A DNA stretch of 64,000 bases from NCBI RefSeq assembly GCF_964355755.1, contig NC_092670.1:8608201-8672200 (forward strand), in the 5' to 3' direction. The notes beneath the pieces were generated by a model. That model ran no database searches. It saw only the letters and a list, made by a program, of their open reading frames with translations, and was not told the DNA's origin. The position numbers and the translations under genes were made by a program. Positions 3,641 to 53,500 of the stretch are shown here, one piece after another (within the stretch, counting starts at the first letter, position 1; each line of letters begins with the position of its first letter). The DNA comes from Antedon mediterranea (lineage: Eukaryota; Animalia; Echinodermata).

Positions 3641-3721
3641 ATAATGGAGTCAAGAATACGTCATTATATGCTAAGAGAAGGAGTTAGGCAAGAAACTATT
3701 GATGCCCTTCAAGACAAAAGT
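3641..3721 (+). CDS. SAM-like exon A, upstream duplicate (MESRIRHYMLREGVRQETIDALQDKS)
   Basis: Acceptor cttcgcag, ATG at 3644, donor gttagt at 3722; near-identical to 8439-8519. Confidence 0.6.
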
Positions 3722-4514
3722 GTTAGTGAATAAACATTTAAATTCTATGTGTATTAATTAATTAATTTACTATGTCTCCAGTAGTTTGTAATACAGTATG
3801 CCAGGTAACTTTGCTTCCAATCTTTTCACTGCGTACCCAGTGTAATATGCTGATGCTATAGTTATTTTGAATACCACCTGTACATGATTACTATACAGTA
3901 ATAAACAACTTAATTTGCATCATATGAAGTCTGTATCAATTCATTACAGTAGCAAATATTTTCCCTAAGACTGAACTGCTTAAAAAATAATTGTTTTAAA
4001 TTTTGCCTACCAGTACACCCTCTCTATATTTTTTCTGACTAATTTAAGTTACTTGCAATTCTTGAAAAAAACTTGTTCTTGGACATAGAAGGACTTGCAT
4101 CAGAGATCCACGTCACAGCCTAATCAACTGCGCCCCCTGTCTAGGACTGGCTGGCCAACCAGTTCCAGCTTGCATTCCTTTTGAGAGTAGACATTTCAAC
4201 ATAATGGTGCAAACTAAATCCTATGTTCAGAAATTGTGCTACTGTACATTGATTTATTCATTGAGTCGATCCGGAGAATGGCATTGGTAAAAAGTGAAAA
4301 CGTATCTAAAATCTTGTTCACATCCAAATCCTGTCAAAAATTAAATTTGCGCTAAAACTAGAAAATTCCTAATGGAGTCTTCTGTGGACTAAGTTCTATC
4401 AGTGTAATCAACATTTGGTCAAAATCTGTTCAGTATTTTTGTATTAGTAATCTTACTAACAGACAAATAAAGCATGCAGTAACCTCCATTGTAAACATGG
4501 TTATTCTTTTACAG

Positions 4515-4646
4515 TTGAATTCTGTTGCTCAGATCAACAAGACATCTGACGAGACTCTGTTGACGACTTATGGACTGAAATCAATTGAAATTGAGAATAT
4601 ACGGCGTGGAGTTGAAATGTTTGAATTGCATCACAAAAAAGAAACG
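4515..4646 (+). CDS. SAM-like exon B, upstream duplicate (LNSVAQINKTSDETLLTTYGLKSIEIENIRRGVEMFELHHKKET)
   Basis: Acceptor ttcttttacag, donor gtaaag, open, phase 0-0; paralog of 9331-9462. Confidence 0.6.
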
Positions 4647-8438: not shown

Positions 8439-8519
8439 ATAATGGAGTCAAGAATACGTCATTATATGCTAAGAGAAGGAGTTAGGCAAGAAACTATTGA
8501 TGCCCTTCAAGACGAAAAA
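8439..8519 (+). CDS. Exon A, SAM-like part 1 (MESRIRHYMLREGVRQETIDALQDEK)
   Basis: Acceptor cttcacag, ATG at 8442, donor gttagt at 8520. Confidence 0.75.
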
Positions 8520-11500: not shown

Positions 11501-14500
11501 GCAATTATTTTGTCAAACTTGCCTACTACTACTAACTTTAAAAAATGTGGGACAATTGACTTACTGTGTATGAAATGCCAATTTCCTCTCACTGTTTAAG
11601 TTGATGTCACTTGGTTGGTTAAACCTTAGGTACATAATGTGAAAAGATCATCTTATAAGTCTTTAAATGGAGATTTACCCGAATACTGTACCATTCATAT
11701 TTGAAATTTGATAATGAAAATCATGAACATTTTACCAGAAATACAGTATTGTTTCATTTTATTTACTTTGCCTCAAAACAATATATAAAAATACAATACA
11801 TGGAAAAGAAATAAGAAAAAAAAAATAGAGACAGGATTCCTAGAAGAAATATCTTACTCTTTCTAATGATATTTAAAAAAAATTCCTGTTTGACCTTTGT
11901 TACATTTTTAGTCTTTCTTTGTTTATTCACCTTACTTTAATTATTACCATATATTACATTTCTTTTGGAGACTCAACTTAAAGGCTCCTTTTGGTTTATT
12001 TGAGTCACAAGACATAAAACAAAGTGAAGTTAGTTAAATAAGATATGTTTTTACGTTTTTTGTTATTTATTTGAAAAAAATATATAATTAAATGAATTTA
12101 TGAGGTGTATCTTTACTTCTTCGGTAGTTCACACCTAGAGCCCCTTTTTTGACATGCCAATTTTTTATCTACATTTCTGAAGTCTTCTTAAAAAAACAGG
12201 TCAATTTGAATTAGAGATACTGAACAGACTTGTACATCCAAATGCATTAACCACATCAAACAAAGTAATGTACAATACATTTTAACAAAAATAATGTAAA
12301 CCTTGAACATGTCTAATTCTTTTTTCCTGTCATGGAATTAAAGTATAGTGCACCCAATGTAATGACATAACATAGTATTGTATTTCATCTTTATTACATT
12401 ACAAAGTGAGAGAGATACATTTGCAAAATAAATAAAAACATACTGTTACTTTTGTATTATCATGGCAGATGTCTGTAGACTATAGTACTAAATTACAATT
12501 AAATCATAAGTTCAATTATATTATTATAGTAGGCCTTAATGATTATGATTTATTTCAGAATGGAAACACCCCACTACATCTATATCTTAGCATATTCACT
12601 ACAAAGTTTGGCTATCCTCAGATGAGAGGTGTTGAATTAGAGATACTGAACACTCTTGTACATCCAGATGCATTAACCACATCAAACAAAGTAATGTGTC
12701 ACGAAATTTTAACAAAAATAATGTAAACCTTGAACATGTCTAATTCTTTTTTCCTGTCATGGAATTAAAGTATATTGCACCCAATGTAATGACATAACAT
12801 AGTATTGTATTTCATCTTTATTACATTACAAAGAGAGAAAGATACATTTGCAAAATAAATAAAAACATACTGTTACTTTTGTATTATCATGGCAGATGTC
12901 TGTAGACTATAGTACTAAATTACAATTAAATCATAAGTTCAATTATATTATTATAGTAGGCCTTAATGATTATGATTTATTTCAGGATGGAAACACCCCA
13001 CTACATCTATATCTTAGCATATTCACTACAGAGTTTGGCTATCGTCGGATGAGGGATGTTGGATTAGAGATGAGGGGTGTTGAATTAGAGATACTGAACA
13101 CTCTTGTAAATCCAGATGCATTAACCACATCAAACCAAGTAATGTACAATACATTTTAACAAAAATAATGTAAACCTTGAACATGTCTAATTCTTTTTTC
13201 CTGTCATGGAATTAAAGTATAGTGCACCAATGTAATGACATAACATAGTATTGTATTTCATCTTTATTACATTACAAAGTGAGAAAGATACATTTGCAAA
13301 ATAAATAAAAACATACTGTTACTTTTGTATTATCATGGCAGATGTCTGTAGACTATAGTACTAAATTACAATTAAATCATAAGTTCAATTATATTATTAT
13401 AGTAGGCCTTAATGATTATGATTTATTTCAGGATGGAAACACCCCACTACATCTATATCTTAGCATATTCACTACAGAGTTTGGCTATCGTCGGATGAGG
13501 GATGTTGGATTAGAGATGAGGGGTGTTGAATTAGAGATACTGAACACTCTTGTAAATCCAGATGCATTAACCACATCAAACCAAGTAATGTACAATACAT
13601 TTTAACAAAAATAATGTAAACCTTGAACATGTCTAATTCTTTTTTCCTGTCATGGAATTAAAGTATAGTGCACCAATGTAATGACATAACATAGTATTGT
13701 ATTTCATCTTTATTACATTACAAAGTGAGAAAGATACATTTGCAAAATAAATAAAAACATACTGTTACTTTTGTATTATCATGGCAGATGTCTGTAGACT
13801 ATAGTACTAAATTACAATTAAATCATAAGTTCAATTATATTATTATAGTGGCCTTAATGATTATGATTTATTTCAGGATGGAAACACCCCACTACATCTA
13901 TATCTTAGCATATTCACTACAAAGTTTGGCTATCCTCAGATGAGGGGTGTTGAATTAGAGATACTGAACACTCTTGTACATCCAGATGCATTAACCACAT
14001 CAAACAAAGTAATGTACAATACATTTTAACAAAAATAATGTAAACCTTGACCTGTCTAATTCTTTTTTCCTGTCATGGAATTAAAGTATAGTGCACCAAT
14101 GTAATGACATAGCATAGTATTGTATTTCATCTTTATCATATTACAAAGCGGGAAAAATACTGTACATTTGCAAAATACAATAAAGAAATAAACATATAAC
14201 TGATACGTTAATTATTAATTGTAGATTTAATATGAATTGATGGTTTTTAAATAGATAATATTTATCATTGCAGATGTTTGTAGATCAGTACTAGCACTAG
14301 AGCCTTAGCAAAAAGCAAATTCAAAAGAGAAATGAAAACATACTATTTGTTTGTATAGTGATATTTATTTATTTTATAAGAGAATTATATTGTATATATT
14401 TGAGAGAAAGTGTATTTAAAAAAAAAAAAAAAATGTTTATGTATATTAATTTTATTTTAGACAGGTAGCCCTAATTTATTTATATAACTATTTATACTTC

Positions 14501-17500
14501 AATGTTTAGGGGCTGAACTCGATTAGTTTTAACTATTTTTTAGCCCTTCCCTTGATATAATTATTATTATTTGTATATTACAATGTTTATAATTTATATT
14601 TATGGGTAAAATAAAGAAAGAAAGAAAGAATCTTAAAGTAGCAACAGTAAATCAGTAGGCCTAATGAGTATAATTTATTTCAGTATGGAAACACCGCACT
14701 ACATCTATATCTTAGCTTATTCTCTACAAAGTTTGGCTATGATCTGATAAGGGGTGTTAATGAATTAGAGATACTGAACAGTCTTTTACATCCAGATGCA
14801 TTAACCACATCAAACAAAGTAATGTACAATACATTTTAACAAAAATAATGTAAACCTTGAACATGTCTAATTCTTTTTTCCTGTCATGGAATTAAAGTAT
14901 AGTGCACTCAATGTAATGACATGGCATACTAGTACAGTATTGTATTTCATCTTTATCATAATAATTAAAAAGCGGGAAACATACTGTACATTTGCAAAAT
15001 ACAATAAAGAAATAAACTAATGACTTATACAAATAAATTGTTGATTTAATATGAATTGATCATATATTGTAACTTAGGCCTTAATAATTATGATTCTTTG
15101 CAGGATAAAGACACACCACTACATCTATATCTAAGGAGTTCTGAAGTTAAATTAGAAATAGTAAACTGTCTCCTAACCAAAGGTGCATCAACCACATCTC
15201 CAAACAATGTATGTACATTTAATTTTACAAGTAGTTCATAAAGAGTAGGCCAATCCATCCCTTGATAATTATGATTGCAGAATGGATACACACCACTACA
15301 TCTATATCTAGGAAGGAGTTCTGAAGTTAAATTAGAGATAGTAAACTACCTCATAACCAATGGTGCATCAATCACAACTCCAAACAATGTATGTACATTT
15401 AATTTAATACAAGTAGTTTATAAACCATACAGCAATATTCCTAGGTATTAGACATTTCAAGTCTAAACAACACAGCCCCCACTGATAAGAAAGTGCTTAT
15501 TTTCAACAAGCTGGTGTAACACAAATAAAATCCCAAAAATTATGAAACATAGGGGAATCTATAGATCGATAATTATTGGAATGTATGATCAATAGAAATG
15601 TTTTGCATGCACCTGGCCTTCAAGGCTCCTTTTGGTTTATTTGAGTCACCAGACATAAATGTATCTACATTTCTAAAGTCTTCTTAAGACAAGGATCATG
15701 AGATTGAGCACATGCAGTTTAACACATTATATTGCACATTGTGGAAGATACATTTGTAAAATACAGAAACAAATGTAAAGGCCAATTGTATTCATCTAGA
15801 AACCAATCTATCCCTTGATAATTATGATTCTTTGCAGAATGGATACACACCACTACATCTATATCTAGGAAGGAGTTCTGAAGTTAAATTAGAGATAATA
15901 AACTGTCTCGTAACCAATGGTGCATCAATCACAACTCCAAACAATGTATGTACATTTAATTTTATAAATAGTTTATTAACGGTAAGCCAACATTTCTAAT
16001 TGCAATAATAGGTATTAGACATTTTAGATCAAAAAACACAGCTTAAATTAAAAATTGATTAAGTTATAAATTAAATTAATAAAATAAATTAAAAATAAAT
16101 TGATTTAATTAATTAAAATTGGAATACATATTTGATTGATTGATTGACTGAATTTCTTTATTAACCAGATTCGCATAATACATTCAATATAAAAACAATT
16201 AAATCATGAGAAACAATTAAATGTCTGTGAATTACCAATTTTGTTTTAGTAAGACTTTATAGCTAAACAATTTTTTTTAATCGTTGATAATCCAAAGTAA
16301 AAGCCAATTGTATTTCATCTAGTAGCCCTTGATAATTATGATTCTTTGCAGGATGGAGACACACCACTACATCTATATCTAAGAAGTCATGAAGTTAAAT
16401 TAGAGATAGTAAACTACCTCATAACCAATGGTGCATCAATCACAACTCCAAACAATGTATGTACATTTAATTTAATACAAGTAGTTTATAAACCATACGG
16501 CAATATTCCTAGGTATTAGACATTTCAAGTCTAAACAACACAGCCCCCACTGATAAGAAAGTGCTTATTTTCAACAAGCTGGTGTAACACAAATAAAATC
16601 CCAAAAATTATGAAACATAGAGGAATCTATAGATCGATGATTATTGGAATGTATGATCAATAGAAATGTTTTGCCCGCACCTGGCCTTCAAGGCTCCTTT
16701 TGGTTTATTTGAGTCACCAGACATAAATGTATCTACATTTCTAAAGTCTGAAGTCTTCTTAAAACAAGGATCACGACATTGAATAGAACATGCAATGTAA
16801 CGCATTATATTGCACATTGTGGAAGATACATTGCAAAATACAGAAACAAATGTAAAGGTGAATTGTATCTAGAAACCAATCTATCCCTTGATAATTATGA
16901 TTCTTTGCAGAATGGATACACACCACTACATCTATATCTAGGAAGGAGTTCTGAAGTTAAATTAGAGATAATAAACTGTCTCGTAACCAATGGTGCATCA
17001 ATCACAACTCCAAACAATGTATGTACATTTAATTTTATAAATAGTTTATTAACGGTAAGTCAACATTTTTAATTGCAATAATAGGTATTAGACATTTTAG
17101 ATAAAAAAAACACAGCTTAAATTAAAAATTGATTAAGTTATAAATTAAATTAATAAAATAAATTAAAACTAAATTGATTTAATTAATTAGAATTGGAATA
17201 CATATTTGATTGATTAATTGACTGAATTTTTTTATTAACCAGAGTCGCATAATACATTCAATATAAAAACAATTAAATCATGAGAAACAGTTAAATGTCT
17301 TTATCAGAATGCCCTGTGAATTACCAATTTTGTTTTAGTAAGACTTTATAGCTAAACAATTTTTTTAAATCGTTGATAATCCAAAGTAAAAGCCAATTGT
17401 ATTTCATCTAGTAGCCCTTGATAATTATGATTCTTTGCAGGATGGAGACACACCACTACATCTATATCTAAGAAGTGATGAAGTTAAATTAGAGATAGTA

Positions 17501-20500
17501 AACTACCTCATAACCAATGGTGCATCAATCACAACTCCAAACAATGTATATGTACATTTAATTTTACAAGTAGTTCATAAACAGTAGGCCAATAATCCTA
17601 GGTAGACATTTCAAGTCTAAACAACACAGCCCCCACTGATAAGAAGTGCTTATTTTCAACAAGCTGGTGTAACACAAATAAAATCCCAAAAATTATGAAA
17701 CATAGAGGAATCTATAGATCGATGATTATTGGAATGTATGATCAATAGAAATGTTTTGCCCGCACCTGGCCTTCAAGGCTCCTTTTGGTTTATTTGAGTC
17801 ACCAGACATAAATGTATCTACATTTCTAAAGTCTGAAGTCTTCTTAAAACAAGGATCACGACATTGAATAGAACATGCAATGTAACGCATTATATTGCAC
17901 ATTGTGGAAGATACATTGCAAAATACAGAAACAAATGTAAAGGTGAATTGTATCTAGAAACCAATCTATCCCTTGATAATTATGATTCTTTGCAGAATGG
18001 ATACACACCACTACATCTATATCTAGGAAGGAGTTCTGAAGTTAAATTAGAGATAATAAACTGTCTCGTAACCAATGGTGCATCAATCACAACTCCAAAC
18101 AATGTATGTACATTTAATTTTATAAATAGTTTATTAACGGTAAGCCAACATTTTTAATTGCAATAATAGGTATTAGACATTTTAGATAAAAAAACACAGC
18201 TTAAATTAAAAATTGATTAAGTTATAAATTAAATTAATAAAATAAATTAAAAATAAATTGATTTAATTAATTAGAATTGGAATACATATTTGATTGATTA
18301 ATTGACTGAATTTTTTTATTAACCAGAGTCGCATAATACATTCAATATAAAAACAATTAAATCATGAGAAACAGTTAAATGTCTTTATCAGAATGCCCTG
18401 TGAATTACCAATTTTGTTTTTAATAGTAAGACTTTATAGCTAAACAATTTTTTTAAATCGTTGATAATCCAAAGTAAAAGCCAATTGTATTTCATCTAGT
18501 AGCCCTTGATAATTATGATTCTTTGCAGGATGGAGACACACCACTACATCTATATCTAAGAAGTGATGAAGTTAAATTAGAGATAGTAAACTACCTCATA
18601 ACCAATGGTGCATCAATCACAACTCCAAACAATGTATGTACATTTAATTTTACAAGTAGTTCATAAACAGTAGGCCAATATTGAAACCAATTATATCAAT
18701 ATTGAAACCGTGAACTAGGCCTACTGCAATTAATTTGTTTTAGATATTCAACTAATCAATTATATTGATTAAAGGCATTTACTTTACGTGAACTACAAAA
18801 TGTTTTAGTAATTTAACTATTATTGAAGGCCTTTACTTTTACGTGAACTACAATGTGATTTTGTGATTCAACTGAATCGTGAACTAGGCCTACAATTTAT
18901 TTGTTTTATATATTCAACTATCAATTATAAAGGCCTTTTTTACGTGAAATACAATTTGTTTTAGTAATTTAACTAATTATTTATGCTATTTATTAATCAT
19001 TTTATCAAATTTAGGTCCGATTCAATGTTACTATAGGAGGCTAATTGAACTAATTATTTATGCTATTTATTAATCATTTTATCAAATTTAGGTGCGATAC
19101 AATGTTACTATATAGGAGGCCTGGTAGGCCTCGGAGGGAAACACCTTTACTGTTTATATTATCGATTATTTCTATTGCTTGCTCTATTTATAATTATAAA
19201 TGGTGTCTACTACGACCGATATATAAGTAGGCTACGAAAGTTGTTATTTGATCATTTTGTTCCAAAATTAACAAGATGCTGTTGTCATGATATATTGTGA
19301 TCGTTAAAGCCCCACTCACTGTCACCCACTTTGATAACTATGCTTTTGGTCTCTTGGTACGGTCATGTTAGAGACTGTTTCAGTAATTGATGACCCCTAT
19401 TAACGGTTTCCTCCTGTGTGTAACGTTCAGATAATATATATAATAATATAATATGTATATTATACGTATACTGTTCTTTACAATTATATTATTTGCATGA
19501 TTAATACCAATTGTTGTAAAGTTTTTACATCATTACAGGAGAATTAATGTACATTTTGTTTTACAAATAAATAAATCTATTGAGTAACTTTTCCAATTTT
19601 ACGTTCCTATAACGACCGATTGCTGTCAAGTTCAATTTCCAGAGGCGTTGGTCATGTTTTCGAGGACCATTCGGGTACACCCACTAGAGGGTGTGCGCGA
19701 GCGAAACGAGCGAACCCTCTAGTCAAAGTAATTATTTTGGTCAATATTGACAGGATTCCCAAAAAGTTAATCTAATTACTCTAGATTAACTAGTCTCCTA
19801 ATTGCACCGATTTAAAATATATGTAAAATATATATATACATTAAAAATGTGTAAAAATACAACTTTATACTATATTATATTACATACAGAATAATACAAT
19901 GATGATGATGATTTAGTTGCAAACCATTTTTAATAGAAAAATGTAATGCAGAAAACTATATAAGCATTCAATTAAAAGGATATGGCTTAAATATTTTAAA
20001 AAGTAAGAAGATAAGACTAGAGATACATTAACCACAAACAAAGTAATTTACTATAATAGTGCATCCAATGTAATGATATAACACAGTAATACATTATTAT
20101 CATTGCACATTGTGCAAGATATGCACAGTGTGCAAGATACATTTTGCAAAATAAAGAAAACAAACAAACTGTTATTTTAATTGATTTGATATGAATTTAT
20201 ATGGTATTTAAATTATTATTAGTGCAGATGTTTAGATCAGTATTAGAGCCTTTTTTAAATCTTAAAGAAGCAACCATTTTATATTATCTAGTTTTAAACC
20301 AGTAGGCATAAGATAATTATGATCTATATTTGAGTATAGTCCATCATACAGAGTTTAGCTTATCATCTGATAAAGTGTGGTATTAAATTAGAGAAACTGT
20401 CCAGTCTTGTTCATAAAGATGCATTAAAGGGGGGTTCCGGGTTTAAAATGAATAGTAAAAAATGTAAAATATATTTGTTTGTCTCTTGAACGGTAAAAGT

Positions 20501-23500
20501 TTCAATTTATATAAGCGCCCAGTGAAGCAGAACGAAGGCTGTGAAATGAGGCCAGATTGCAAGTGCAGCTACGGCGATATGACACTGTGTTTACAGAATA
20601 GGAAATTCGTGAAATGGTCAATGTTCCGACGACTCGTTATCATTAACCATATCAATTACTTTTGTGAAATTATACTTATCTAAAGTAATTTTAGTCGGTC
20701 TTCCCATTTATAAAGTCAATTTTCTATGAAAATTCATCAAAACAGTGAAAAATTAGATATGTTTGCACTTTACGTTTGCCGATTTTCGCACTGACTTAAA
20801 GAAAGCCTTCAAAATCAATGAAGCGTAACGTATGCATTCCTGCTGAGCGAGACGACGATACACGTGCTCTACCTGCCCATGCCTGGCATGTCACGTGATA
20901 AGCAGATACAGTACAATACCAAACTGGTCGGGTCGAGTATACCCCGTCTATAATCACAACATGAACGATGTACAGTATTTGGTTGAAGGTCGACTCGACC
21001 TACCGGAATGGTATAGATAATATAGCTCGAATGAGAGAGTTGGAATATTTGTTAACATAAGTATATTGCTAATTTTAACAAGCCTATAATACTTTATTAA
21101 AAGGCCTGGTAGTATCAATTCGCATATAGGGTCTATTACACTAGCTAGCTCAATTTTTAACTGGGCCGAATCGGCTAGGTCTCCTTCCTACTACCTGGTC
21201 TACTTGCTTGATGCAGTATCTGCTTTTTTGGAGAGTAAACTAGGCCTATTTTAGGCCTACTTTTAGACGATCGGGACACCATACGTGCGGACGTACCTTT
21301 TTTGCCTCAATATTTACAGCCGATTTTGTAGAATGTTTTAGGTTTAGATTGTTTAGGAGTTTGGTTGATAGGATAGGTTTGGAATCCACCGAGTTTTATT
21401 ATTATGGGCCAATCGTTTAGTAGGCTAGCTAGGCCCATGATGGGCCCCAATGTTTTAACGTAGCCATCGTGGCATGGAATCCCTAGTCAGAATGGCTCTC
21501 ACCCATGAAAACAAATGATTTAGGCTAGGCCTAGCCTAGTACGTGAAGCCGATAATACGATCTGTACTATTCGAGGTATAAAAATAGTATATAATTTAAG
21601 ACTCCGTAATCTTTACTAAATGTTGTATTTATGTCAAATAAATATATGCTACTACTGTTATTATTACACTTTAGGCCTAGCTTAGAAAATCTACAAAAAA
21701 TGTATTTCACAATGATCGGGTGGTTGTCGTTTGACAGGGGAGAGAGATTTGAAGTTAACAAACACAACGTACACTTTTAGATACTGATCACAGAATAGTA
21801 ATCACAACATTCAACTTAAAATGGCATCGCGTTAACAAACAAAACACTAACAAAAACACCAACTTATTTGCATGTGAAAAGCTAGTGACAAGCAAAGAAA
21901 CTAGGAATTTATACGTAGAAAAACTGAAAGAATGCATAGATGTTGTTGTGAAACCGGATCAGCCAACCGTTACATGGCAGGAATTGAAAAGCGTCGTGAA
22001 GGCAGCTGCAAAACATACAATAGGACCAAAACAAAAGGTCGGCTACAACAAAAGGACATACGATGACACAACCCAACGCCTATCAACGCAGCAAAAAGAA
22101 CTTAGACTACAAATAGCTAACTGCAAGTCGGAAATCGAACGTACATCATTAAAGCAAAAAAGAAACAAAATCATGCATGACATTCAAAAAAGAGTAATTG
22201 AAACACGCAACAAAGAACTTGATCAGAAAAGTTTGGATATCGACAAAGCGATAGGGGGCGCCCAAATGTTTAAAGCAGTGAAAGATCTTAGTAGAAAACC
22301 ATTCGAAAATCCAAAAGTGTTTGATGCTAACAAAAAGTTTATTGCCTCACCAAATGGAATAGCGAAAGTAATTGGCAATCACTTCAAAAATAAATTTTAC
22401 GACGGAAGCAAACGAAATATAGATTCATTTGAGGGAAATCCTAGGCCATTAAATAAAGAAATCAGTGAAGAGGAAGTAACCAAGAGTCTTAAACGCCTAA
22501 ACAACAGTCGAGCAACAGGTGAGGATGGTATCCCAGGAGAACTACTAAAATACGGTTCCCCTGTTCTAGCTCCAATGATTTCAGACATTTTAAATCAAAT
22601 ATTTACAAAACATGAATTCGTGGATATTAATAAAGGAACACTCATAGCACTACCAACACCGGGTAAGGAAAAGGGTCCAACTAAGAATTTACGACCTGTT
22701 ATTCTACTTAACACCATACGCAAGTGCCTATCGCTTATAACACTGGATAGAATTACATCGAAAGTAGACGCATTCTTACCACAAAGCCAAAGTGGGTTTC
22801 GCAAAGGCAGAAGCACAAGTGATATAGTTTTTACACATAGATGGCTTATAGCTAAAGCACAAAAAGAAAAAATAAATATTTACATAACCGGTATAGATAT
22901 GTCCAGCGCGTTTGACACAGTGGATAGAAACAAACTCCTCGACATACTCAAACATATTATAGACGAAGATGAACTTAGGATCGTTAGATTTCTGCTGAGT
23001 GAAACCGGACTAAATCTAAAAATAAAAGGTGCAAAAGAACAGCCAATATTCCTAACCAACATCGGCACCCCTCAAGGAGATAGCTTAAGCCCGGTCTTAT
23101 TCACTGTTTACCTTGAGTCTGCGCTACGAGGAATCAGAACAATTATCCAAACAGAAATACCTCAAGAGATATCATATGCTGATGATGTAGATTTTTTTAG
23201 TCTAAATAGCAAGCATAATGTAAACAAATTAGAACGCCATTTATCAACTTTCAACTTAAATGTAAATAAAGAAAAAACAGAACACACTATCGTAAGACGA
23301 GAAAAAGAGGACATACAAGAACAATGGAGAAACACGAAAAAAGTAGGATCGCTCCTTGGGGACAGACAAGACATAATTAGAAGAAAACAACTAGCGCGTG
23401 TAGCAATGACCAAACTAAACTCGATGTGGCTTCGAAAAGATAAAACCAAATTAAAAATACGTATCAAGCTGTACAACTCACTAGTTAAAAGTATATTACT

Positions 23501-26500
23501 CTACAACTCTGAAACATGGGGACTCACAAAAGAAGAAGCACATAAACTCGACACATTTCACAGACAGCAACTTCGCAAAATCATAGGTATCAGGTTCCCA
23601 GACAGGATATCGAACATAAATTACCGATTTCATTAGAAATAGTCGACGCAAGATGGAGACTATTGGGTCACATACTTAGACAAGACCCATGTACACCAGC
23701 CAACACAGCAATAAGCTATTATTTCAGCAACACTACCAATATAAAATTTCGATGAAGACCGAGAACCACCCTACCAATAACTCTCAGCAACGACCTACTC
23801 ACCCTTTATAAGCATAATACAGACATTAAGTATCCCGGGCAATTGAAAACCAAGAAAGACATGAAACAACTTAAAGAACTAGCCAATGAAAGATCAGACT
23901 GGAAGAAACTAGTAAAAGAGATTTACGGAGCAGCCCAAGCGGAAATGTCGGCAGACTTTTCAGCGGAAAGGCAGTAATAATATAATATATACGTACATGA
24001 CGTCGCGAGTTTGGAATCCACTGATGACGTGATTTTGTGAATATCTCATGAATATTAATGAGCTTCCCTAAGCTGCTGAAAAACAGACTTTCCATGAATT
24101 TACCCTAAAATGTATATGAAATTAATTTTTTTTAATTTCTCGTTATTACTTCTTCACTCTGACATGTCTATATTGTTATGATATTTTTTATTTAATAAAT
24201 AAACGATATTTAAAAGCAATTTTAAACCCAGAATCCCCCTTTAATCACATCAAAGTAATGTGCAATAAATGTTAACAAATATATTTTCCCCTTTAAACTT
24301 GCCTAATTCTTTTTCCCTATCATGCAATTAAAGTATAGTGCACCCAATGACATACATATTGTATTTCATATTTTAAATTAAGGATTTAATATGAATTGAT
24401 GGTTTTTAAATAAATAATCATCACCATTGCAGATGTTTGTAGATCAGTACTAGAGCCTTTTTTTAATCTTAAAGTTGCAACATGTCTATTTTATAGCATG
24501 TAATTTTCAACCAATAAGCCTTAATTATGATTTATTTCAGGATGGAAACACCCCAGTACATCTATATTTTAGCTTATTCAGGACAGGTGATCGTCGGTTG
24601 TGGGGTAATATAATTGAATTTGAGATACTGAACAGGCTTGTACATCCAGATTTTTTAACCACATCAAACAAAGTAATGTACAATACATTTTAACAAATAA
24701 TTTAAATTATTTTTATACTGTTTATGAAATTAAATTATAGTGTACCCAATGTAATGGCATAGCAAAGTATTGTATTTCATCTTTATCAAATTACAAAGTG
24801 GGAAAGATACATTTGGAAATAAAAGAAAAAACATACTGTTATTTTTGTATTATGAATTGTAGGTTTAACATTATCGATGGGGCTTTTTTACTATATATGT
24901 TACTACATAATTCATATTTTTAACATTATGGGGTTTTTTTAATCGCTAAAGTTTAAAAAAATGTGTTGAAATTGTATGTTCTTTCATAAGTATTTATCTT
25001 AGACAAACGCAAGTTATTAAAATCACTGATGTGGCTTGAAACTAATTTTTCTTTTGCATTACGGATGGTGTCACGAACTCCTCTCACGTATGTTTCCGAG
25101 CGGTTGAAAATACTTTAGGAACTCCCTTGTGACATAAAAGTATACACACAAAATCCACAAAGTTGTAAAAATAACTCAAAACAAAGCTTTAATTTCAATC
25201 AACTTCAACTTTTAACATTCCAGTAAGCACTTTAAACAACAGCTTCACAATAACTTTACAATATAATATCCAACCTCTAATCCAACAACCTTACAATAGT
25301 TTACATCCCTTTATATACAAGATGCTCCTCCTATCCTTCTAGATCATTCTTTATACTTCTCATTATGACATGATTACAGTTTCTATTAATAGCGCTTCTG
25401 GAATGTTCTTAATTGTTTTTATTAATTATACATGGTTTCTTAAATCAAAACACCTTACTGTATTCTAGAATGTTCATGTAAATACTATGTTACTCTATAT
25501 GTTAGGGAATGGTAATTTATTACACTCCCCCCTCTTTCTTGGAGTTTTGAGGGGCAAGTACACGGACGTGGCAAAATATAACATTTTCGTTCTAGAAACC
25601 CTGTTTAAATATGTGTATATAAATTAAAACTACATTACGTGAAAACCAAATTCTCATTACAAACAAAATGTAAGAAACAAGTAACTTATAAACATTAAAA
25701 CCTATTTTGTCTATTTGTAAAGTAACCCTTGCTTTAAGTTAATGGTTTTCGTGACAACCCGTCAGCATTACCATTAGAAATACCCCTTCTATGTACAACA
25801 GTAAAGCAATAAGGTTGTAAATCAAGACTCCATCTAGTTAGTCTTTTGTTTGTCTCTTTCATTTCAACCAACCATTTGAGTGGTTGATGGTCAGTAACGA
25901 TCTTAAATTTTTTCCTAGTAGATAATATCGGAGACTTTCGACAGCCCGTTTTATAGCTAAACACTCTTTCTCTATAGTTGCATAATTCTGTTCCCTTGGG
26001 AACATCTTACGACTAAGATACAATACTGGATGGTCAGTACCATCAGGACCTAGTTGACTAAGTACTGCACCTAACCCTCGATCTGACGCATCTGTTTGCA
26101 GTATAAACTCTGCATTAAAATCTGGGTTTCGTAACACAGGGTCTGAACATAACGCCTGTTTTAACTTTACAAGTGCATCTTCGCACTCAGGCGTCCATTT
26201 GATTTTATCTGGATGTTTTTTCCCCGTCAGATCAGTTAGAGGTGCTGCAATGTCAGCATAATTAGGAATAAACTTTCGGTAGTACCCTCTCAGCCCAAGA
26301 AAAGATTTAACATCCTTCTTAGTTTTAGGTTTTTCCCAATGTACTACCGCTTCTACCTTAGTCTTTTGAGGACGTATCATTCCCTCTCCAACTACATACC
26401 CTAAATAATGCACTTTACTATATGAAAAACTACATTTTGCAGGTTTGACTGTCAGATTAGCTTGTCTGAAAAATGTCCCTAAGATGATGGATATGACTTT

Positions 26501-41500: not shown

Positions 41501-44500
41501 TGCTGTAGTTATGATGGTGTCCCATGGATTGGTTTGGTGGTGGATGTCTCACTCTCAGAAGAGTTTGGGGATTTTCAAATTAAATTTATGCATCCTCATG
41601 GGTCAGCGAAAACCTTTTATTGGCCGTCCAAAGAAGACTGTTGTTGGATTCCTGAATCAAATGTACATTGTATTATAGCCTCTCCGTTTATAAAATCCTC
41701 TTCGACTAGGAATTAAAGTATTTCCCAAAATGATCGCCACAACATTTCTAAATACTGTTTGAATTGTCCAGATGACAAGGAGTAAAGGCCAGACATAGAC
41801 AATTGTAACATTATAATAATATTTAGTTTGTAAATAAAATTAATTTTGGAATACATCAAATTGACATTGAAGTAATGCATGGACAGACACCAAAAATACA
41901 CTAAAAGGAAGAGGTATGTCAACTTCAAATTGTAATTTCATGGAAACAAAGAAAAAAACCCCTCCAATTTTTTTATATGTTGTAGTTGACACGTAGGGCT
42001 ACATTTTTCATGATAGTCACCAACAAAACGGGCGTGTTCCACGGGGGAAATTTCAAGGTCAAAATACATGTCAAAGTTTTATTCAACTTAAAATTAACAT
42101 AAAACACACACAATTAGTATATTTAGATTCCTTATGGTCTCCCCTTTACAAAAATACCTTTGCTTTTAAAATCGAACCTATAGTTCCCGAGATACAGCTC
42201 TTTGAAACGTGGCGGACGCGCCCTTTTTTGCGTAAAAACCGAAAATTGAAATTGCGATATCTTGAAAACCGTTGGTCCGATAAAGTTAAAATTTGAAATT
42301 TTGGCTTTAATTGCTATGAATTACCCATATACCAACTTTCATCAAAATTGGAAGAGGTAGGGTTTAACTCATTGGGTGATCTGAGATGGAATGACCCATA
42401 TGGTTAATATAATGAATTCTGGCATCTTATTATGTAAATATACCGGTATTTTAACTACTCTAAACACTTACTTTTAATTGTCACAAATGTACTTATATGT
42501 ATATAATATATTCATCAATGAGAATTTAAATAAACGTGAGAAGAACTCACACAAGACAAAAAAAAAAAAATCTACTTTGTGAAACATTTTCTATTGTCGT
42601 ACATCCTAATTCTATCATAAACCTACTCTTTTTGTAATCTATTATTATTATATGAAGATTATTATATGAATTTTTTAATTTCCTTCTTTTTTAAAACAAT
42701 TATCATTATTCGGACCTAAGGGCCCCATAATTGTCAAATAGTGTATTTTGCTGAATATTATTTTTTTATTTAAAGATGTATTGTCCCTTTGACTAATTCC
42801 AAAAAAATTTTTTTTTTAATTTTGAAAAAAAGTGGGTCATTTTGAAGTATCATAATAGTTATAAAAAAATTAGTCGAAAAAAAAAAAAAAATTAACCGAA
42901 ATACAGATGTTTTTTTGTTCAAAAAAAAACTTTGACTTCCAGTCAAAGTTTTCAATCAAAACATATCTCATAATGCAACGCACTTATTTGGCTACTCTGT
43001 ATGCATAATCATAAAACTTCCTTGCGATCTGTGTGAAAACACCTTCTCAACCGTGAGAAGTTGTAAACAATCCTAATTAGCATAATGCATACTCATGGTT
43101 TGAAATCTGTGTTTACTTTCGCTTGCGACGATTTCCTAGATGAAATGTAATCTAATTAATTTACCTGTTAATTACGTAAAATTGTTGTTTTTGGCTCGAA
43201 TTTTCGACTTAAAGTGAATAACTTTAATATTACTTTGATATGGCCAATTTAAATTTAGAATATTTTTTTTTTCATTTTTTGTGTTTCAAGGGACACTACA
43301 TCTTTAAGTTGTTAACAAATTATCATCATCATATTGCAAATGTTTGTAGGTCAGTACTCACACCTTTTTAAAATCTTAAAGCAAAATTCCAATTTATAGC
43401 TAGTTGTAAACCAGTAGACTTATTATGATTTCTTGCAGGATGGAAATACCCCACTACATCAATATCTGAGCATGTTCAATACAGAGTTTGCTGATCATCT
43501 AAAGGAGGATGTTATTAAATTAGAGATACTAAATATACTTGTACATCAAGAGGCTTTAACCACAACAAACAAAGTAATTTACATCAAATGCAGATGATTT
43601 AAATTAAAACCTTTTTAAAATCAATATTTTGACTCGGAGTCTCCTTATAAGGCACTGCCTGAGTTTCAATCAGCCTTTGCAACAAATAAAAGTTGAGCTT
43701 AACTGAAAAGTGTGAAATATATAACAATATAAGAAATAAATTTTAATAGATCTTGTGGTGTCAACTAAATATTTCTGTGCACAATTAAATAAAATTTGAG
43801 GGCGTGTTGGACATTGGACTACTAATCGTGAGATCGAGGTTCGAATCCAACTCCCGCCGCATTGCTTGTATCCGTAGGCAAGATACTTTACTTACGTTTG
43901 CCTCTCTCCACCCAGGTATATAAAATGGGTACCCGGGTTAGATCAAGACACAACTTTGCGCTGATTACTAGTTGCATTATGGGAGTATGTTTCAATACGT
44001 GTTTGACAACAAAAAAATGACTGGGGTAATAATGTTTTAGCGCTTAGAGGTTTCACATTTTGCTACCTATATAAATTCAGGATATTATTATTATTAAAAT
44101 AATATTGTTGAAAGAACAGTTGATCCAAAAATAAAGATATTATAAATTGTAAATAGGAGAAGAGTCTTGATCAAGTAAATATTTATCCATTTTGTTAACA
44201 CTGGTGATTCGTTCCTTTTTAAGGGCATTATTATGAGAGAAATAGTAGATAGTAATTTTTAACATGATGTAAATTTAGAGAATTTGAGGTCTTGTTACAA
44301 AATTTACATCTGTTTGATTGAAGTTATAGTAGGTGGAACGGCTTTTTTTTAGGGAATAACATTGATTAGTTTTATTTGTATAAAATGGTACTTTTCATTT
44401 ACTTTCCTATTTTGCAATTTTAATTAAATCACTGTTTATCCTTTGTTCAAAGATCTGTACAATAATACATGTATCATGTATGATCATCAGCATATAAGCT

Positions 44501-47500
44501 GACATCACATTGAAGATTTATCGACAATATAATTATTAACAGTTTTAACTGAAAAAAAAAAATGTTTAAAAACATAATCAGGCTGTTATTTTAATTATGC
44601 TGTTTGTAGATCAGTACCAATCTTAAATTAGCAAATGACCTTTTTTAATATCATCTTATTTTAAATTATGATTATGATTAATTTCAGGATGGAAACACCC
44701 CACTACATCTATACCTGAGCATATTCACTACAAAGTTTGGCTATTATCATATGCATCGTGGTATTAAATTAGAGATACTGAACAGTCTTGTACATCCAGA
44801 TGCATTAACCATATCAAACAAAGTAATGTAACATAAATCATGTAAACAAGTAATTTTAACCTTAAACATGTACTATATATATATATATATATACACATTT
44901 ATAATAAAACTAAAATATTGTAATGTAATAAGGTAACATAATTTTGCATTATTATCATAGTATTACACATTGTGACAGATACATTTGCAAAATAATGAAA
45001 ATATTACTTTTATATAAATTGTTTGTTTAATATGTATGAATTGAAACTATTTTTTGAATAATCATCACAGCCATTTTTAAATCTAAGTACAAACATGCCA
45101 ATGTTATATCATCTAGTTGTATTAAACCATTAGAAGAAGTAAATGATTATGATTTCTTGCAGGATGGAAACACTCCACTTCATCTTTATCTGAGCATATT
45201 CTATAAAGGGTTTGCCTTTTTAATGATGGAGCGTGGTATTGAATTAGAGATTCTGAACAGTCTCATACATCAAGATGCATTAACCACAACAAACAATGTA
45301 ATGTACAATAAATGTTAACAAATACAATTGTTTTATTAATTTAATAAAATTAAAGTATAGTGTATCCTACATTGCATTATTATCATAATTATTGCATAAC
45401 ATATATTACTGTTGTTTTTATAATGAATTGTAGTTTTACAATGCATACATTTTCAATTATTATCATTGCAGCTGTTTAGTTTAGTACTAGAGCCATTTTT
45501 ACAATCTTAAAGTAGCAGCATGCCAATGTTATATTATCTAGATTATGATTTATTGCAGGATGGAAACACACCACTTCATCTATATCTAAGCATATTCTAT
45601 AGAAGGGTTTTATTTTATCCAAAGGAGCGTGGTATTGAATTAGAGATACTGAATAGTCTCATACATCAATATGCATTAACCACATCAAACAAAGTAATGT
45701 ACAATTTTATGTTTTTTTATTGAACCATGTTTCATAATAGACCAGTCGGATCTGGAGGCAGGTGTCACTTTTCTGCAGAATTTTCCAAACCAACTTTTTC
45801 TAGTGCATTTTTTGACGTAGATTACGAATCTGGTTGTTGATCGGACTAACGTGGGGGCTTTTTAAAGATATAAACGTTTAAAATCTTGATTTTTCAGAGC
45901 CGAAATTAATCAAAATAAAACAAATTTAGACAATAGAGGGCGCACTTTCTATATAATCATGAGTAAATTGGATTAAAAAAGACTTCGTTGCTGTGAATTT
46001 TATTCACGTAAATGTGAAAATAATTTATAAATCTGATCGGTTTTATATGCTGAAATTGTTTTAGTAATACACTGTGTAGTATAAAGTTAGTTAGAACTTT
46101 TCATTTTCGCGTTTTCAGTGATCAAAAATGATATTGTCTAGGCCCGAATATGAATGCTTCCAGCGTACGACGTATGTAAACAAAGGACGTGTAAACCGCG
46201 ATGACCGCATATAAAGTTCGCTCAAGTGAATAGTGGGTAGGCTTTTACTAGCCTAGCGTATTATGACCGTATGCATGAAACATCTTTCTCTAGCTTATTT
46301 TGCATGCAGCGCTAGCTTTACATAAACATGTGTACTACTGTTTTTAAATTTTTTTCCCCCGATTTTTAGGTGGTGTAGGCCTAGAACTTATATTATTATT
46401 ATATTAGTATTACTGACAGGCTTCTAGAGTAGGCTACTACTACTAGGCCTAGTACTGCTGTAGTAACTAGTTGGCATAACAATAGCGTAGGTGTAGATGT
46501 ATTATGGTGTCGTGTGTGTAGTCTTACAGCTAAAACATTTATTTTTGTATAAATAAATCTAATAAATGCTGTGTACTACTACCCGTATATTCAGCTGATT
46601 ATAACAATACATTCAGCAACCCTATCAACCAACGATTTCTCACAGGTGACATCATTGTTCAGGTGGAAACATTGTGAAAATACTACAACGATATTGAATG
46701 TATTATTTATTACGAAAGCTGCATCTAGCATGAACATATTTCCTCTCTGACTCAGATCATGTTTTAAACAATAAAAGAAAATAAGGTTGCCCTAAAGAAC
46801 TAGCTGTAGAAAATCACATAAAACAATAAACATGGCTATATCATACCAAATGTATTCTACAAAATAAACAGCCAGCATCATATAATAATTATGGTTTAAA
46901 ATGTCAAAGACCAACTGATAAATGTGGAATTTGCGTGTATGGTGGTTTGATTCCATAATAGTAATACTGTATATTGATGATGCCAACTATTGCATTTTCT
47001 ATGTATATGTACAGGCGCGTAGCCAGGGGGGTTTTATGGTTCGGGCGAACCCCTATTCCCGACATGCCCAATACCTCACCCTCATCTCTGAAAATCCTCC
47101 AAATACGTGCCCCAAACAGTACAAAAGGTTAATTTGAAAAATTCGTTCGTGAATAACTCGATACCCTCTTCACTGTATGAGCGTATGTCGAGCGATACGT
47201 GTCTGTAAATTTACGAGTTGCAAATGAATTGCCGATTTTCACCTGAAATCCCTTGATGTAACATGATATTGATGCGTGTATCGTACTCATAAAGTGAGCT
47301 GGGGCACGAACGATTCGTACAAAGGACACCGCCAGACAATAGCGTGACGTACCTATATTGTTTAGATCACGGCAGTCAGCATGCATAAAGTATACCGTAA
47401 ATCTTCTAATTGTAACCCTGGGTTATTATATTATTCTTTGATTGTTTTTTAGGGTGGGTTACTATTAGAAAGGGATTACTATTAGAGTAGTGGTTACTAT

Positions 47501-50500: not shown

Positions 50501-53500
50501 TAAATATGGATTTTGAATCAACCAATGATAGGGACGTAATTTTAGTTTCAAAAGAGTAGGCCTATGTATAAAACGAGTAAGACTTTAGTTGAAACTGCTG
50601 AGATAACACTTTTTGCAGGTTAAAATTTAATTTTGACAGGGTTATTATCAAATTTTTGTGTTAACATTTATAAAGTCTAGGCCTCTACCTATGCCTCATA
50701 TGAGCGGACTGCAAAATAAAACACCAATATATACCACCATCAGGTACTATAGGCAGCCAGAGAGCATGGTCAGAGTAGGAATTAATATAATTCATATTAA
50801 CTCTGCATATTAATAAGATCAATTGTATGATTGTTTGTGGAGAAGCAGCCTCAATCAAGCAAGACAAGTTGTACTCTTCTAGCTAGGGGAAACATCATCA
50901 AATGTTTTACTAAACTACCTACTGTAGGCCCAGAATCTTTCATCATCACATCATTTCACAACAAACAAGTTGGAGTTTGTGTACCCAGACGTACATGTTG
51001 GGCGTTCACGTTGTCAAAATGCATACACATCATCTTAGGTGTTGAATCTCTGAAATTTCTAAGCATGTATAATAAAATATTTCCAAGTAAGTAGTCAATC
51101 GCATGTGGCTGAACCTGGTTAACTGGATAATTGTAGAAACCATAAATAATTGAATGTGTTTTTCTAGATAATACTGTGTTTCGAGCTAAAATATTATAGG
51201 TATACTATTCTTTGACCATTTTTTTGTTTCTGTCTTGAAACCCAACTACTGTTTGTAGATCAGTACTAGAGCCATTTTGTAAATGCTAAAGTAGCGACAT
51301 ACCAATGTTATATCATCTAGTTGTAAACCATTATAAATAGATTATTATGATTTCTTGCAGGATGGAAACACTCCACTTCATCTTTATATGAGCATATTCC
51401 ATAAAGGGTTTTACTATTATCCAAGGGAGCGTGGTATTGAATTAGAGATACTGAACAGACTTGTGCATCAAGATGCATTAGCCACATCAAACAAAGTAAT
51501 GTACAATAAATCACAATAAAACACAATATCAAAAAATGATAGTAGATAAATTTTAGATAATGGCAGTCAGTAAATTCTACTACAAATACAATGTATGTAT
51601 GTATGTATAATATATATATATATAATGCATCTGTCAAGGGGCGTTTATTCGAGAGGCCGTTTATTCAAAATGATGTTCTATGGGGACGTTATTCGAGAGG
51701 GCGTTTATTTTAAGTAAGGCGTTTATTCTAAGTAAGGCGTTTATTCAAATGAATACGCTAACATAGTATTCCATTATTATCATTATTATTGCAAATTGTA
51801 AAATATACATTTGCAAAATAAATAAAAATGTAAAATTACTGATGTTTTCACTTTTAGTACTAGATCTGTACTAGAACCATTTTGTAAATATTAAAGTATC
51901 AACATGCCGATTTTATATCATCTAGTTGTAAACAATCATGTCTTGATGATTATGATTTATTTCAGGATGGAAACACCCCACTTCATCTTTATCTGAGCAT
52001 ATTCAATACAAAGTTTGGCTATTATCTAATGGAGCATGATCAATTTGAATTAGAGATACTGAACAGACTTGTACATCAAAATGCATTAACCACATCAAAC
52101 AAAGTAATGTACAATAAATGTTAAGAAATTTAAACCTTAAACCTGTCTATTTTAGTACATCAATGGAGGAAATAAATATATATAGATATTTCCTCTATAT
52201 GGTACATCCAATGTAATGGATGAAGATATACTATAGAAAGCATATTTTATTTTGAATTGTAGGTTTAATATGTATGAATTTATACTATTTTAATAGTAAT
52301 CATTGCAGCTGTTTCTGCAGTAAAATCATTACTAGAGCCATTCTATTATTTATTATTTTATTTATTTATTTACTTTAATTATTTAATTTATAGATATTTA
52401 TTTTAGAACAGACTTGACAGTGGTATATTTTTTTTTAATATATTATTAGTTTGATTTTGGTTTAGATAGCAAAATCAATTTATGTCTTAACTTGTTTATA
52501 GAAAGGAAAGACGCCAGTGTGTATTTTAAAAGATAATGATCAGATGGACCTAGAAGTAAAACACACGATTTTGAAGTTATTTGACAGTAAGTTAATGTTT
52601 TTAAAATAATTTAACCCCCTGAATGTCAACCTGTAGTTCTAAATTAAAAACAAGTTTCGTACTATTTAATTTGACTGTACAAAAAGTAAAGTACAAAAGG
52701 TAAAAGGTTTGGGAATACACCATTTCCTGCTGTTTTGATATTAGTAAACCTAAACCTGTTTACCAGAAGGTGGCAAACGAGACATATGAAAATCAATCTA
52801 AAACAAGAGCGATATCAAAACTACTGACACTATGCTTTCAATGTCAGAAAGCATTCGACATTATATAATAAAATAATACAAACTAAAGTCAACATTTTTT
52901 AATCTTCTGTTTAACTGGATATTGAGAAAATTCGGATTATGCCCTTTGCATACCTTATTTCTAGTAGTGTACATTCTTTGTGCACATGAAATTTGTGAGT
53001 ACACAAAACTATTGTTTTGGCGTCCCTGACACAAGCTTTTGCTTTTTTGGTGACGCCACCATTTTGGAAATAAATGTTGATTTTGATTGATTGTAATTGC
53101 TTCATGTCCCATCCATAGGATGACACAGTGAGAATAAGTATCTTGCGTGGATATAACGAATATTGCACAAACAGGTTTCGAATACATTCCCATTGCATAC
53201 AAGTCTGCTTCTTTACTTTGATGCCATACTTACAATCTAATTATTTGCGTCCAATAAACTTGAACATCATTTACTGGATATTTATCCACATACACATATC
53301 ACTTTTATTTGATTTCTGTGATCACTGAATTGTATTTTCAATGTTTTGAACAAAATCCTCTACTTGATAAGGCAGAAATTGAAATTCTTTTGATTTTAAG
53401 ATGTTTATTAATGCATTTTATTGAAATACAAAATAAAGAAAATGTACCTTGCATTTAAATGTGTTTATTATTGTTAGCTCAACAGTCTAAAATGGATCAA

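What the first reader, a model, noticed from the sequence alone, without database searches (positions are those of the whole stretch)
12559..52103. All 20 ankyrin exons are symmetric phase 0-0 cassettes, allowing combinatorial splicing
Each exon length is a multiple of 3 (105-153 nt), each starts at xGxTPLH (one DKDTPLH) and ends at N[KNQ], and all share similar splice signals (att-atgatt-(tattt/ctttg/tcttg)cag; gtaatg or gtatgt). Any subset can be joined between N-cap and C-cap without frameshift. Inference: Dscam-like or skip-based isoform diversity, or copy-number shuffling by recombination. Constitutive inclusion is equally possible from sequence alone.
Basis: partly seen in the sequence, partly recalled or inferred. 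Interest (0 to 1): 0.8.

Follow-up and report, generated by a model that had tools for sequence, protein, structure and literature searches.

The report
Fast-diversifying ankyrin array in feather star
A feather-star gene holds 20 copied ankyrin-repeat exons that have been duplicated, recombined and rapidly changed at one loop; it likely encodes an immune-type sensor whose variety likely comes from inherited DNA reshuffling, and mix-and-match splicing remains untested.

Summary
In detail: 20 intact one-repeat-per-exon ankyrin exons, all AG/GT and phase 0-0 (12 long, 8 short), plus four relics. Symmetry is not evidence for combinatorial splicing. All exons descend from two ancestral units, and any exon that survives tandem duplication must be symmetric. 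The window is Antedon mediterranea or identical to it. The inferred gene is SAM/HhH-like module, ankyrin array, possible TRADD-N-like domain, and a crinoid tandem-DED module also found on NACHT, TIR and ROCO proteins. Germline reshuffling is shown: identical exon-plus-intron copies, one exon that is a crossover chimera, and a same-chromosome paralogue with 13 repeats in another order. The main new result is that the long exons carry a 12-19-residue insert between helix 1 and helix 2 with dN/dS about 5-7, against about 0.3 in the framework. No docking/selector pairing and no splice junction were found. Best reading: a candidate immune sensor diversified by germline exon shuffling and positive selection, spliced mostly in sequence (0.6). 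Regulated skipping is open (0.22); Dscam-like one-of-N choice is unlikely (0.05). The closest precedent is the brown-algal ROCO LRR exon arrays.

The parts
3644..4646 (+). First copy of the two-exon SAM/HhH-like module (3644-3721, 4515-4646)
   Evidence: Translate exactly into pieces of XP_071943365.1; 94.7% duplicate of 8418-9509
8439..9462 (+). Second copy of the SAM/HhH-like module (8439-8519, 9331-9462); ATG at 8442
   Evidence: Exact pieces of XP_071943365.1; Atlas structure neighbours HhH/Rad51-N/RNAP alpha-CTD, TM about 0.7, under the naming bar; one contig of run X1 matches 9331-9462 end to end
9812..9904 (+). Linker exon C, phase 0-0; the RefSeq model uses a donor 10 nt further on and a terminal exon near 10136-10221
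10563..10606 (+). Linker exon D, phase 0-2 (inferred from frame and splice sites only)
10727..10823 (+). N-cap exon E, phase 2-0
   Evidence: weak match to the N-cap of ANK-ROCO P0002
12200..12264 (+). Relic: 3' half of a long-type exon with its donor, no 5' half
12559..12690 (+). ANK exon 1, long type, 132 nt
12986..13138 (+). ANK exon 2, long, 153 nt, with a 21-nt internal duplication
13432..13584 (+). ANK exon 3, long, identical to exon 2 including 250 nt of downstream intron
13877..14008 (+). ANK exon 4, long, 132 nt
14684..14818 (+). ANK exon 5, long, 135 nt
15104..15208 (+). ANK exon 6, short, 105 nt
15281..15388 (+). ANK exon 7, short, 108 nt; crossover chimera of exon-8 and exon-9 types; 72-nt upstream intron
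15838..15945 (+). ANK exon 8, short, 108 nt (identical to 10 and 12)
16352..16456 (+). ANK exon 9, short, 105 nt
16911..17018 (+). ANK exon 10, short, 108 nt
17441..17545 (+). ANK exon 11, short, 105 nt (identical to 13)
17996..18103 (+). ANK exon 12, short, 108 nt
18529..18633 (+). ANK exon 13, short, 105 nt
20018..20055 (+). Relic: 3' end and donor of a long-type exon
   Evidence: E 7e-4
20322..20427 (+). Relic: decayed long-type exon with stops and frameshifts
24239..24281 (+). Relic: 3' end and donor of a long-type exon
   Evidence: E 1e-5
24541..24672 (+). ANK exon 14, long, 132 nt, most diverged; lies between introns of 5.9 and 18.8 kb
43439..43573 (+). ANK exon 15, long, 135 nt
44688..44822 (+). 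ANK exon 16, long, 135 nt
45163..45297 (+). ANK exon 17, long, 135 nt
45559..45693 (+). ANK exon 18, long, 135 nt
51361..51495 (+). ANK exon 19, long, 135 nt
51966..52103 (+). ANK exon 20, long, 138 nt
52502..52586 (+). C-cap exon, phase 0-1
   Evidence: 89% identical to the paralogue's cap
53478..57038 (+). Two related Ser/Thr-rich linker exons (53478-53606, 56892-57038), phase 1-1
57387..57773 (+). Exon H, possible TRADD-N-like domain
   Evidence: Atlas 0.94, PF20694 on 62% of cluster members; not confirmed by Pfam or fold search
59584..60107 (+). Last exon, crinoid tandem death-effector-domain-like module, with the stop codon
   Evidence: 85 relatives; 21 of 30 scanned match PF01335 DED; E 9e-12 to the DED region of P0002; no direct Pfam hit for this exon

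Best explanation
This ankyrin array was built and reshuffled in inherited DNA by tandem exon duplication and crossover, and its long exons carry a fast-evolving loop; the exons are likely spliced mostly in sequence into one long protein that likely acts as an intracellular immune-type sensor. Shown: the exon anatomy, young exon-plus-intron duplicates, a chimeric exon, relics, a paralogue with another repeat number and order, and dN/dS above 1 in the insert and below 1 in the framework. Inferred steps: (1) one repeat per symmetric exon lets unequal crossover add, drop and reorder repeats without a frameshift; (2) the stacked repeats bind a variable ligand, with the aromatic-rich helix 1-helix 2 insert lying next to the binding face; (3) binding clusters the C-terminal DED-like (and possibly TRADD-N-like) module, which recruits DED partners such as the crinoid DED-NACHT, DED-TIR and ROCO proteins or a caspase. 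Some incidental in-frame skipping is expected and would not change this reading.
For: Duplication units include introns: a 446-bp unit x4.5, a two-exon unit of about 1085 bp, and exons 2=3, 8=10=12, 11=13. Exon 7 follows exon 8 at 18 of the first 20 diagnostic columns and exon 9 at 27 of the last 27, with the switch inside the exon. Four relics. The paralogue XP_071943401.1, on a contig of the same length as the RefSeq protein the window encodes, has 13 repeats in order SLLSSSLSSLSSL against LLLLLSSSSSSSSLLLLLLL here, and its repeats do not pair one to one with the window's. Insert omega 4.9-7.0 (p 0.004-0.015) and 6.5 under three codon-frequency models (p 0.002-0.003); 4.3-11.8 on dropping any one of six exons; 0 of 200 neutral simulations reach it; framework 0.27-0.34. 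The extra residues fall between TPLHL and the second helix in alignments to ankyrin and DARPin chains. Relatives of the last exon: 10 of 10 looked up are crinoid; of 30 scanned, 3 carry NACHT, 3 TIR, 6 Roc/COR and 1 a kinase. All 30 modelled exons join in one 1405-aa frame. No docking signal.
Against: No transcript across the array was seen, so consecutive splicing is inferred. RefSeq models only the 5' exons of this locus, as a separate 203-aa gene, and no database protein matches the window's own ANK-DED part. The link through exon D rests on frame alone. Ankyrin donors match U1 at 5-6 of 9 positions against 6-8 for eight flanking exons, which would favour skipping. The dN/dS test uses 13 codons of six exons (or 8 codons of nine), a region chosen after its variability was seen, and a tree that gene conversion violates; exon 14 and identical copies were left out. 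TRADD-N was not confirmed by Pfam or fold search. An AlphaFold model of the paralogue (mean pLDDT 52, shallow alignment) drew the repeats as beta strands and matched nothing. No immune function was tested.
Confidence: 0.6

Rival explanations
1. On top of germline shuffling, exon skipping yields a substantial repertoire of in-frame isoforms from one allele, as reported for brown-algal ROCO LRR exons.
For: 20 of 20 exons are phase 0-0; donors are weak and exon 7 has a shortened acceptor behind a 72-nt intron; exons 14 and 15 sit in long transposon-filled introns; PMC11378527 (passages) reports up to nine transcripts with different LRR combinations in an analogous gene family.
Against: Symmetry and shared splice sites follow from duplication alone. 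The paralogue has one RefSeq model without an isoform label, which is weak because that model lacks an N-cap. Four of the 20 exons are redundant copies, so many subsets would give the same protein. No junction was seen, though contigs break in such repeats.
Confidence: 0.22
2. Dscam-like mutually exclusive splicing: one ankyrin exon is chosen per transcript and placed between N-cap and C-cap.
For: A tandem array of homologous symmetric exons between unique flanking exons; a three-unit cap-repeat-cap domain can fold (N1C DARPins, PMC8229355 passages).
Against: Best median duplex between the 5' flanking intron and exon-upstream flanks was -14.95 kcal/mol, beaten by 6 of 8 shuffles; 3' side -14.2, beaten by 12 of 20. 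No inverted repeat recurs across exons. 18 of 19 introns are 261 nt or longer, so there is no steric exclusion. No frame incompatibility. Identical exons add no choice. The paralogue model strings 13 repeats together.
Confidence: 0.05
3. This copy of the array is silent or decaying; the expressed sensor is the paralogue, and the 5' exons form their own short gene as RefSeq has it.
For: RefSeq annotates only the 203-aa 5' gene here; no database protein matches the window's last exon exactly; over 25 kb of transposon-rich sequence interrupts the array.
Against: All 30 exons are open with AG/GT ends; framework omega is about 0.3 among exons specific to this copy; broken relics lie beside intact exons, which suggests the intact ones are kept by selection.
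Confidence: 0.1
4. The youngest identical repeats (exons 2/3, 8/10/12, 11/13) are partly an assembly expansion, so the true count is lower than 20.
For: Exon 2 and exon 3 are identical with 250 nt of intron; no laid contig spans the stretch.
Against: The other copies differ in their introns (2 to 8 differences in about 250 nt, with indels), as real young duplicates would; 16 distinct exons remain in any case.
Confidence: 0.04

Closest known systems
Brown-algal ROCO LRR and NB-ARC-TPR exon arrays (PMC3341825, passages; PMC11378527, passages)
   Same: One repeat per symmetric exon, repeat number and order differing between recent paralogues, inactivated exons in introns, positive selection on repeat residues, candidate immune receptors; splicing and somatic recombination proposed.
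   Different: Here the repeat is ankyrin, in an echinoderm, with two exon types mixed in one array and variation concentrated in a length-variable insert; no Roc-COR or NB-ARC domain; no exon on the opposite strand; no transcript evidence.
Invertebrate DED + TRADD-N lineage-specific expansions (PMC8195603, sections 10 and 11 read)
   Same: A constant death-fold plus TRADD-N unit joined to a variable region; ankyrin repeats are named as the variable part in cnidarians, bivalves and the sponge Amphimedon; nearby retrotransposons.
   Different: Here the ankyrins come first and the DED-like module last; TRADD-N identity is only an Atlas lead; the sections read do not discuss exon structure. The paper's architecture table (Figure 4-source data 1) was not read and may list a similar echinoderm protein.
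Crinoid ANK-ROC-COR-DED proteins (XP_071964214.1 = P0002; XP_071944627.1 = P0089)
   Same: Related caps, LHLY-type ankyrin repeats in P0002, and the same DED-like C-terminus.
   Different: They have few repeats, no long insert, and a ROCO GTPase core that this gene lacks.
Pancrustacean Dscam1 (PMC4244043, passages; docking/selector mechanism recalled)
   Same: Tandem arrays of duplicated homologous exons in a gene with an immune role.
   Different: Dscam picks one exon per cluster; no docking/selector pairing was found here, and ankyrin repeats work as a stack.
Vertebrate ankyrins ANK1-3 (one repeat per phase-0 exon; recalled, not confirmed by searches)
   Same: Ankyrin repeats on separate symmetric exons; best PDB sequence match.
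   Different: Their arrays are old, fixed in number and conserved; this one turns over between paralogues and is under diversifying selection.

Membership tests
Ankyrin-repeat proteins | Tandem 33-residue repeats with the TPLH motif | tested here: met
   Short exons pass the Pfam Ank cut-off (2 of 2 scanned); 2 of 3 long exons scanned match only below it and 1 not at all; paralogue E 1.3e-44; 284 PDB sequences, best ankyrin-1/2 at E 2.8e-51
Ankyrin-repeat proteins | Helix-loop-helix stacked fold | tested here: inconclusive
   The low-confidence AlphaFold model of the paralogue gave beta strands and no fold match
Dscam-type mutually exclusive arrays | Tandem homologous exons of equal phase | tested here: met
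Dscam-type mutually exclusive arrays | Docking site pairing with a selector beside each exon | tested here: not met
   Not above shuffles on either side; tested 10824-12200 and 52180-52501 against 220-nt flanks of 12 and 13 non-redundant exons
Dscam-type mutually exclusive arrays | One exon per transcript | not testable with these tools
   Only contigs were available; no ankyrin junction among the rows shown
Exon-shuffled repeat receptors (brown-algal ROCO/NB-ARC-TPR type) | One repeat per symmetric exon; number and order differ between paralogues; dead exons in introns | tested here: met
Exon-shuffled repeat receptors (brown-algal ROCO/NB-ARC-TPR type) | Positive selection on repeat residues | tested here: met
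   Insert omega 4.9-7.0, p 0.002-0.015, with the caveats stated
Exon-shuffled repeat receptors (brown-algal ROCO/NB-ARC-TPR type) | Roc-COR or NB-ARC NTPase core | tested here: not met
   No such domain in the paralogue or in the window's exons scanned; works like this family but is not a member
Exon-shuffled repeat receptors (brown-algal ROCO/NB-ARC-TPR type) | Several transcripts with different repeat sets | not testable with these tools
   one search shows no junctions either way
DED + TRADD-N expansions (Kaur et al. 2021) | Death-fold domain, usually DED | tested here: met
   By homology: 21 of 30 relatives match PF01335, E 9e-12 to the DED region of P0002; the exon itself has no Pfam hit
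DED + TRADD-N expansions (Kaur et al. 2021) | TRADD-N domain | tested here: inconclusive
   Atlas 0.94, 220 of 256 features; mixed alpha/beta model at pLDDT 72; no Pfam or structural match
Somatically assembled receptors (VLR type) | Incomplete germline gene with flanking cassettes lacking splice sites | tested here: not met
   The germline frame is complete and every intact exon has splice sites

The most novel reading that the evidence does not exclude
A crinoid immune receptor whose ankyrin exons, each with its own positively selected CDR-like loop, are combined by regulated exon skipping (or somatic crossover) so that one allele gives many binders that differ between cells and signal through a death-fold tail: a natural loop-DARPin library in an echinoderm.
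Probability: 0.12. Interest if true: 0.85.

Novelty: new variant of a known kind. Interest (0 to 1): 0.5.

Why it matters
It adds an ankyrin-based, echinoderm case to the short list of exon-shuffled, positively selected repeat receptors, and it places the selection on one length-variable loop. That names a binding site to test and a scaffold idea for repeat-protein design. Crinoid immunity is little studied, and the DED-like tail ties the gene to a crinoid set of DED-NACHT, DED-TIR and ROCO proteins. One long-read amplicon experiment would settle whether splicing adds a repertoire within an animal. Searches that found no description of this gene or array: (open-access full text only).

Tried and rejected
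No whole genome was held, so paralogue DNA and other alleles could not be read. No RNA holder was listed by record. Contigs of four runs were laid on 8300-19400 only: no ankyrin exon-exon joint among 15 rows shown (38 not shown). Contig depth was higher on ankyrin exons than on upstream exons in run X1, but contig depth cannot rank exons, so it was not used. Joints 14153-14264 and 14293-15075 looked like loss of exon 5 but can be a longer variant of one intron; rejected. Joint 18697-15080 (runs X2 and X4, not X5; one sample) shows a second copy with another short exon at that point; the paralogue explains it, so it is not counted as allelic variation. Docking/selector search negative; Rfam found 0 matches. 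The first dN/dS robustness run stalled at its starting values and was discarded (redone). Five distinct short exons gave pairwise dN/dS 1.25 on few changes, not tested further. Fold searches for exon H found no TRADD-N match (best Z 5.4, helical parts only); a profile search of PDB found nothing. The AlphaFold model of the paralogue was not usable. Earlier-findings look-ups by place and by sequence were empty.
Full report
Observation. A motif scan found 19 exons and nhmmer a twentieth at 24541. All 20 have AG/GT ends, lengths divisible by three and phase 0-0. They fall into two well-supported clades: 8 short exons (105 or 108 nt, 15104-18633) and 12 long exons (132-153 nt). Four relics lie among them, and 16 of the 20 exons are distinct.

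What symmetry means. The exons are copies of two ancestors, duplicated with their flanking introns, so phase and splice signals are inherited and are not 20 separate observations. A non-symmetric exon could not survive tandem duplication; PMC3341825 (passages) makes the same point. Exon lengths differ only by multiples of three while 8 of 36 intron gaps do. This shows the exons are coding, and says nothing on whether they are constitutive.

Organism and gene. Six window exons translate exactly into the Antedon mediterranea RefSeq protein XP_071943365.1, a 203-aa model that stops before the array. Five upstream exons, the 20 ankyrin exons and five downstream exons join in one frame of 1405 aa; the link through exon D is inferred. 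The N-terminal module looks SAM/HhH-like (below the naming bar). Exon H resembles TRADD-N-like clusters in the Atlas, but Pfam and two fold searches did not confirm this. The last exon belongs to a crinoid family of 85 relatives: 21 of 30 scanned match DED, with NACHT, TIR, Roc/COR, kinase or TPR partners, and 10 of 10 looked up are Antedon or Anneissia. PMC8195603 (sections 10 and 11) describes invertebrate expansions of DED plus TRADD-N with variable ankyrin regions.

Germline reshuffling is shown. There is a 446-bp unit in 4.5 copies and a two-exon unit of about 1085 bp. Exons 2=3, 8=10=12 and 11=13 are identical. Exon 7 is a chimera: it follows exon 8 at 18 of the first 20 diagnostic columns and exon 9 at all of the last 27. 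The paralogue XP_071943401.1 is 84% identical in the last exon and lies on a contig of the same 41,379,608-bp length. It has 13 repeats in a different long/short order, with its own identical pair and no one-to-one match to the window's repeats. Contigs of one sample show a second copy that continues with a short exon where the window does not (runs X2 and X4 but not X5); the paralogue explains this. Variation between individuals was not tested.

Diversifying selection. Long exons carry 12-19 residues between the two helices, where alignments to ankyrin and DARPin chains open a gap; 20% of insert residues are F, Y, W or H. Among the six gap-free 45-codon exons, pairwise dN/dS is 3.8 in the insert and 0.31 in the framework. 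Codon likelihood gives 4.9 (p 0.014) and 0.29 (p 0.001), and 6.7-7.0 for the first 8 insert codons of nine exons. A robustness run gave 6.5 under three frequency models (p 0.002-0.003), 4.3-11.8 on dropping each exon, and 0 of 200 neutral simulations as extreme (one search failed and was discarded). Caveats: few codons, a region chosen after inspection, gene conversion, exon 14 and identical copies left out. That DARPin randomised positions lie at the end of helix 1, beside this insert, is recalled; PMC8229355 (passages) says only that they lie on the concave face.

Splicing. No Dscam-type docking site was found: the best duplexes were beaten by 6 of 8 and 12 of 20 shuffles, and no inverted repeat recurs across exons. 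18 of 19 introns are 261 nt or longer and one is 72 nt. One contig of run X1 (RNA by guess) matches an upstream exon end to end, a hint that the 5' part is transcribed, but no ankyrin junction was listed. In favour of skipping: ankyrin donors are weaker than those of the flanking exons, and the brown-algal analogue has splice variants (PMC11378527, passages). The paralogue has a single RefSeq model with 13 consecutive repeats, which is weak evidence because that model lacks an N-cap.

Results against this reading. RefSeq does not annotate the window's ankyrin-DED part, so it may be silent. The AlphaFold model of the paralogue was beta-rich at mean pLDDT 52 and matched no structure; I take this as a shallow-alignment failure because sequence matches to ankyrins are strong. 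No function was tested.

Verdict. The feature is real. It works like the exon-shuffled candidate immune receptors of brown algae but lacks their NTPase core and uses ankyrin repeats with a selected loop. It fails the one Dscam test I could run. Germline shuffling with mostly consecutive splicing 0.6, regulated skipping 0.22, silent copy 0.1, one-of-N choice 0.05, partial assembly expansion 0.04. Novelty: new variant of a known kind; interest 0.5. Eight of the ten literature searches looked for this gene or such arrays and found no description; PMC13449251 (fungal NLR repeats) was seen as a listing only, and no supplements were read.

Noticed in passing
window 25069-32603 (- strand): Gypsy-type LTR retrotransposon in the 18.8-kb intron: 456-bp LTRs at 96.3% identity, with SCAN, protease, RT and integrase in broken frames.
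   Followed up: partly
window 21759-23636 and 53748-55937: Two LINE-type reverse transcriptase remnants on the + strand inside introns of the gene.
   Followed up: partly
window 39816-42401: Element with 528-bp terminal inverted repeats at 95% identity and broken ORFs without a Pfam hit; likely a DNA transposon.
   Followed up: partly
window 3620-4692 and 8418-9509: The two-exon SAM/HhH-like module is itself tandemly duplicated (94.7%); RefSeq joins both copies, so exon duplication in this gene is not limited to ankyrin exons.
   Followed up: partly
window 9905-9916: The RefSeq 203-aa model uses a donor 10 nt past exon C that leads to a terminal exon; contigs of runs X2 and X4 show another letter at the G of this donor. 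It could be a switch between a short SAM-only product and the long protein.
   Followed up: no
window 15480-15700, 16540-16780, 17630-17860: A high-copy genomic repeat sits in alternate introns of the short-exon array and was duplicated with it (depth spikes); it may seed unequal crossover.
   Followed up: no
window 13048-13092 and 13494-13538: A 21-nt slippage duplication lengthens the insert of exons 2 and 3 by 7 residues.
   Followed up: yes
P0001 residues about 764-868: The paralogue has a Pro-rich 8-residue repeat between the H domain and the DED-like module that the window's model lacks; P0002 has a different repeat linker at the same place.
   Followed up: no
window 34558-35120 and 60902-61210: A 21/54-bp minisatellite in the long intron and a 113-bp tandem repeat downstream of the gene.
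   Followed up: no
window 5388-6704 and 6896-8229: Two 78%-identical copies of an unidentified 1.3-kb element between the duplicated 5' modules.
   Followed up: no
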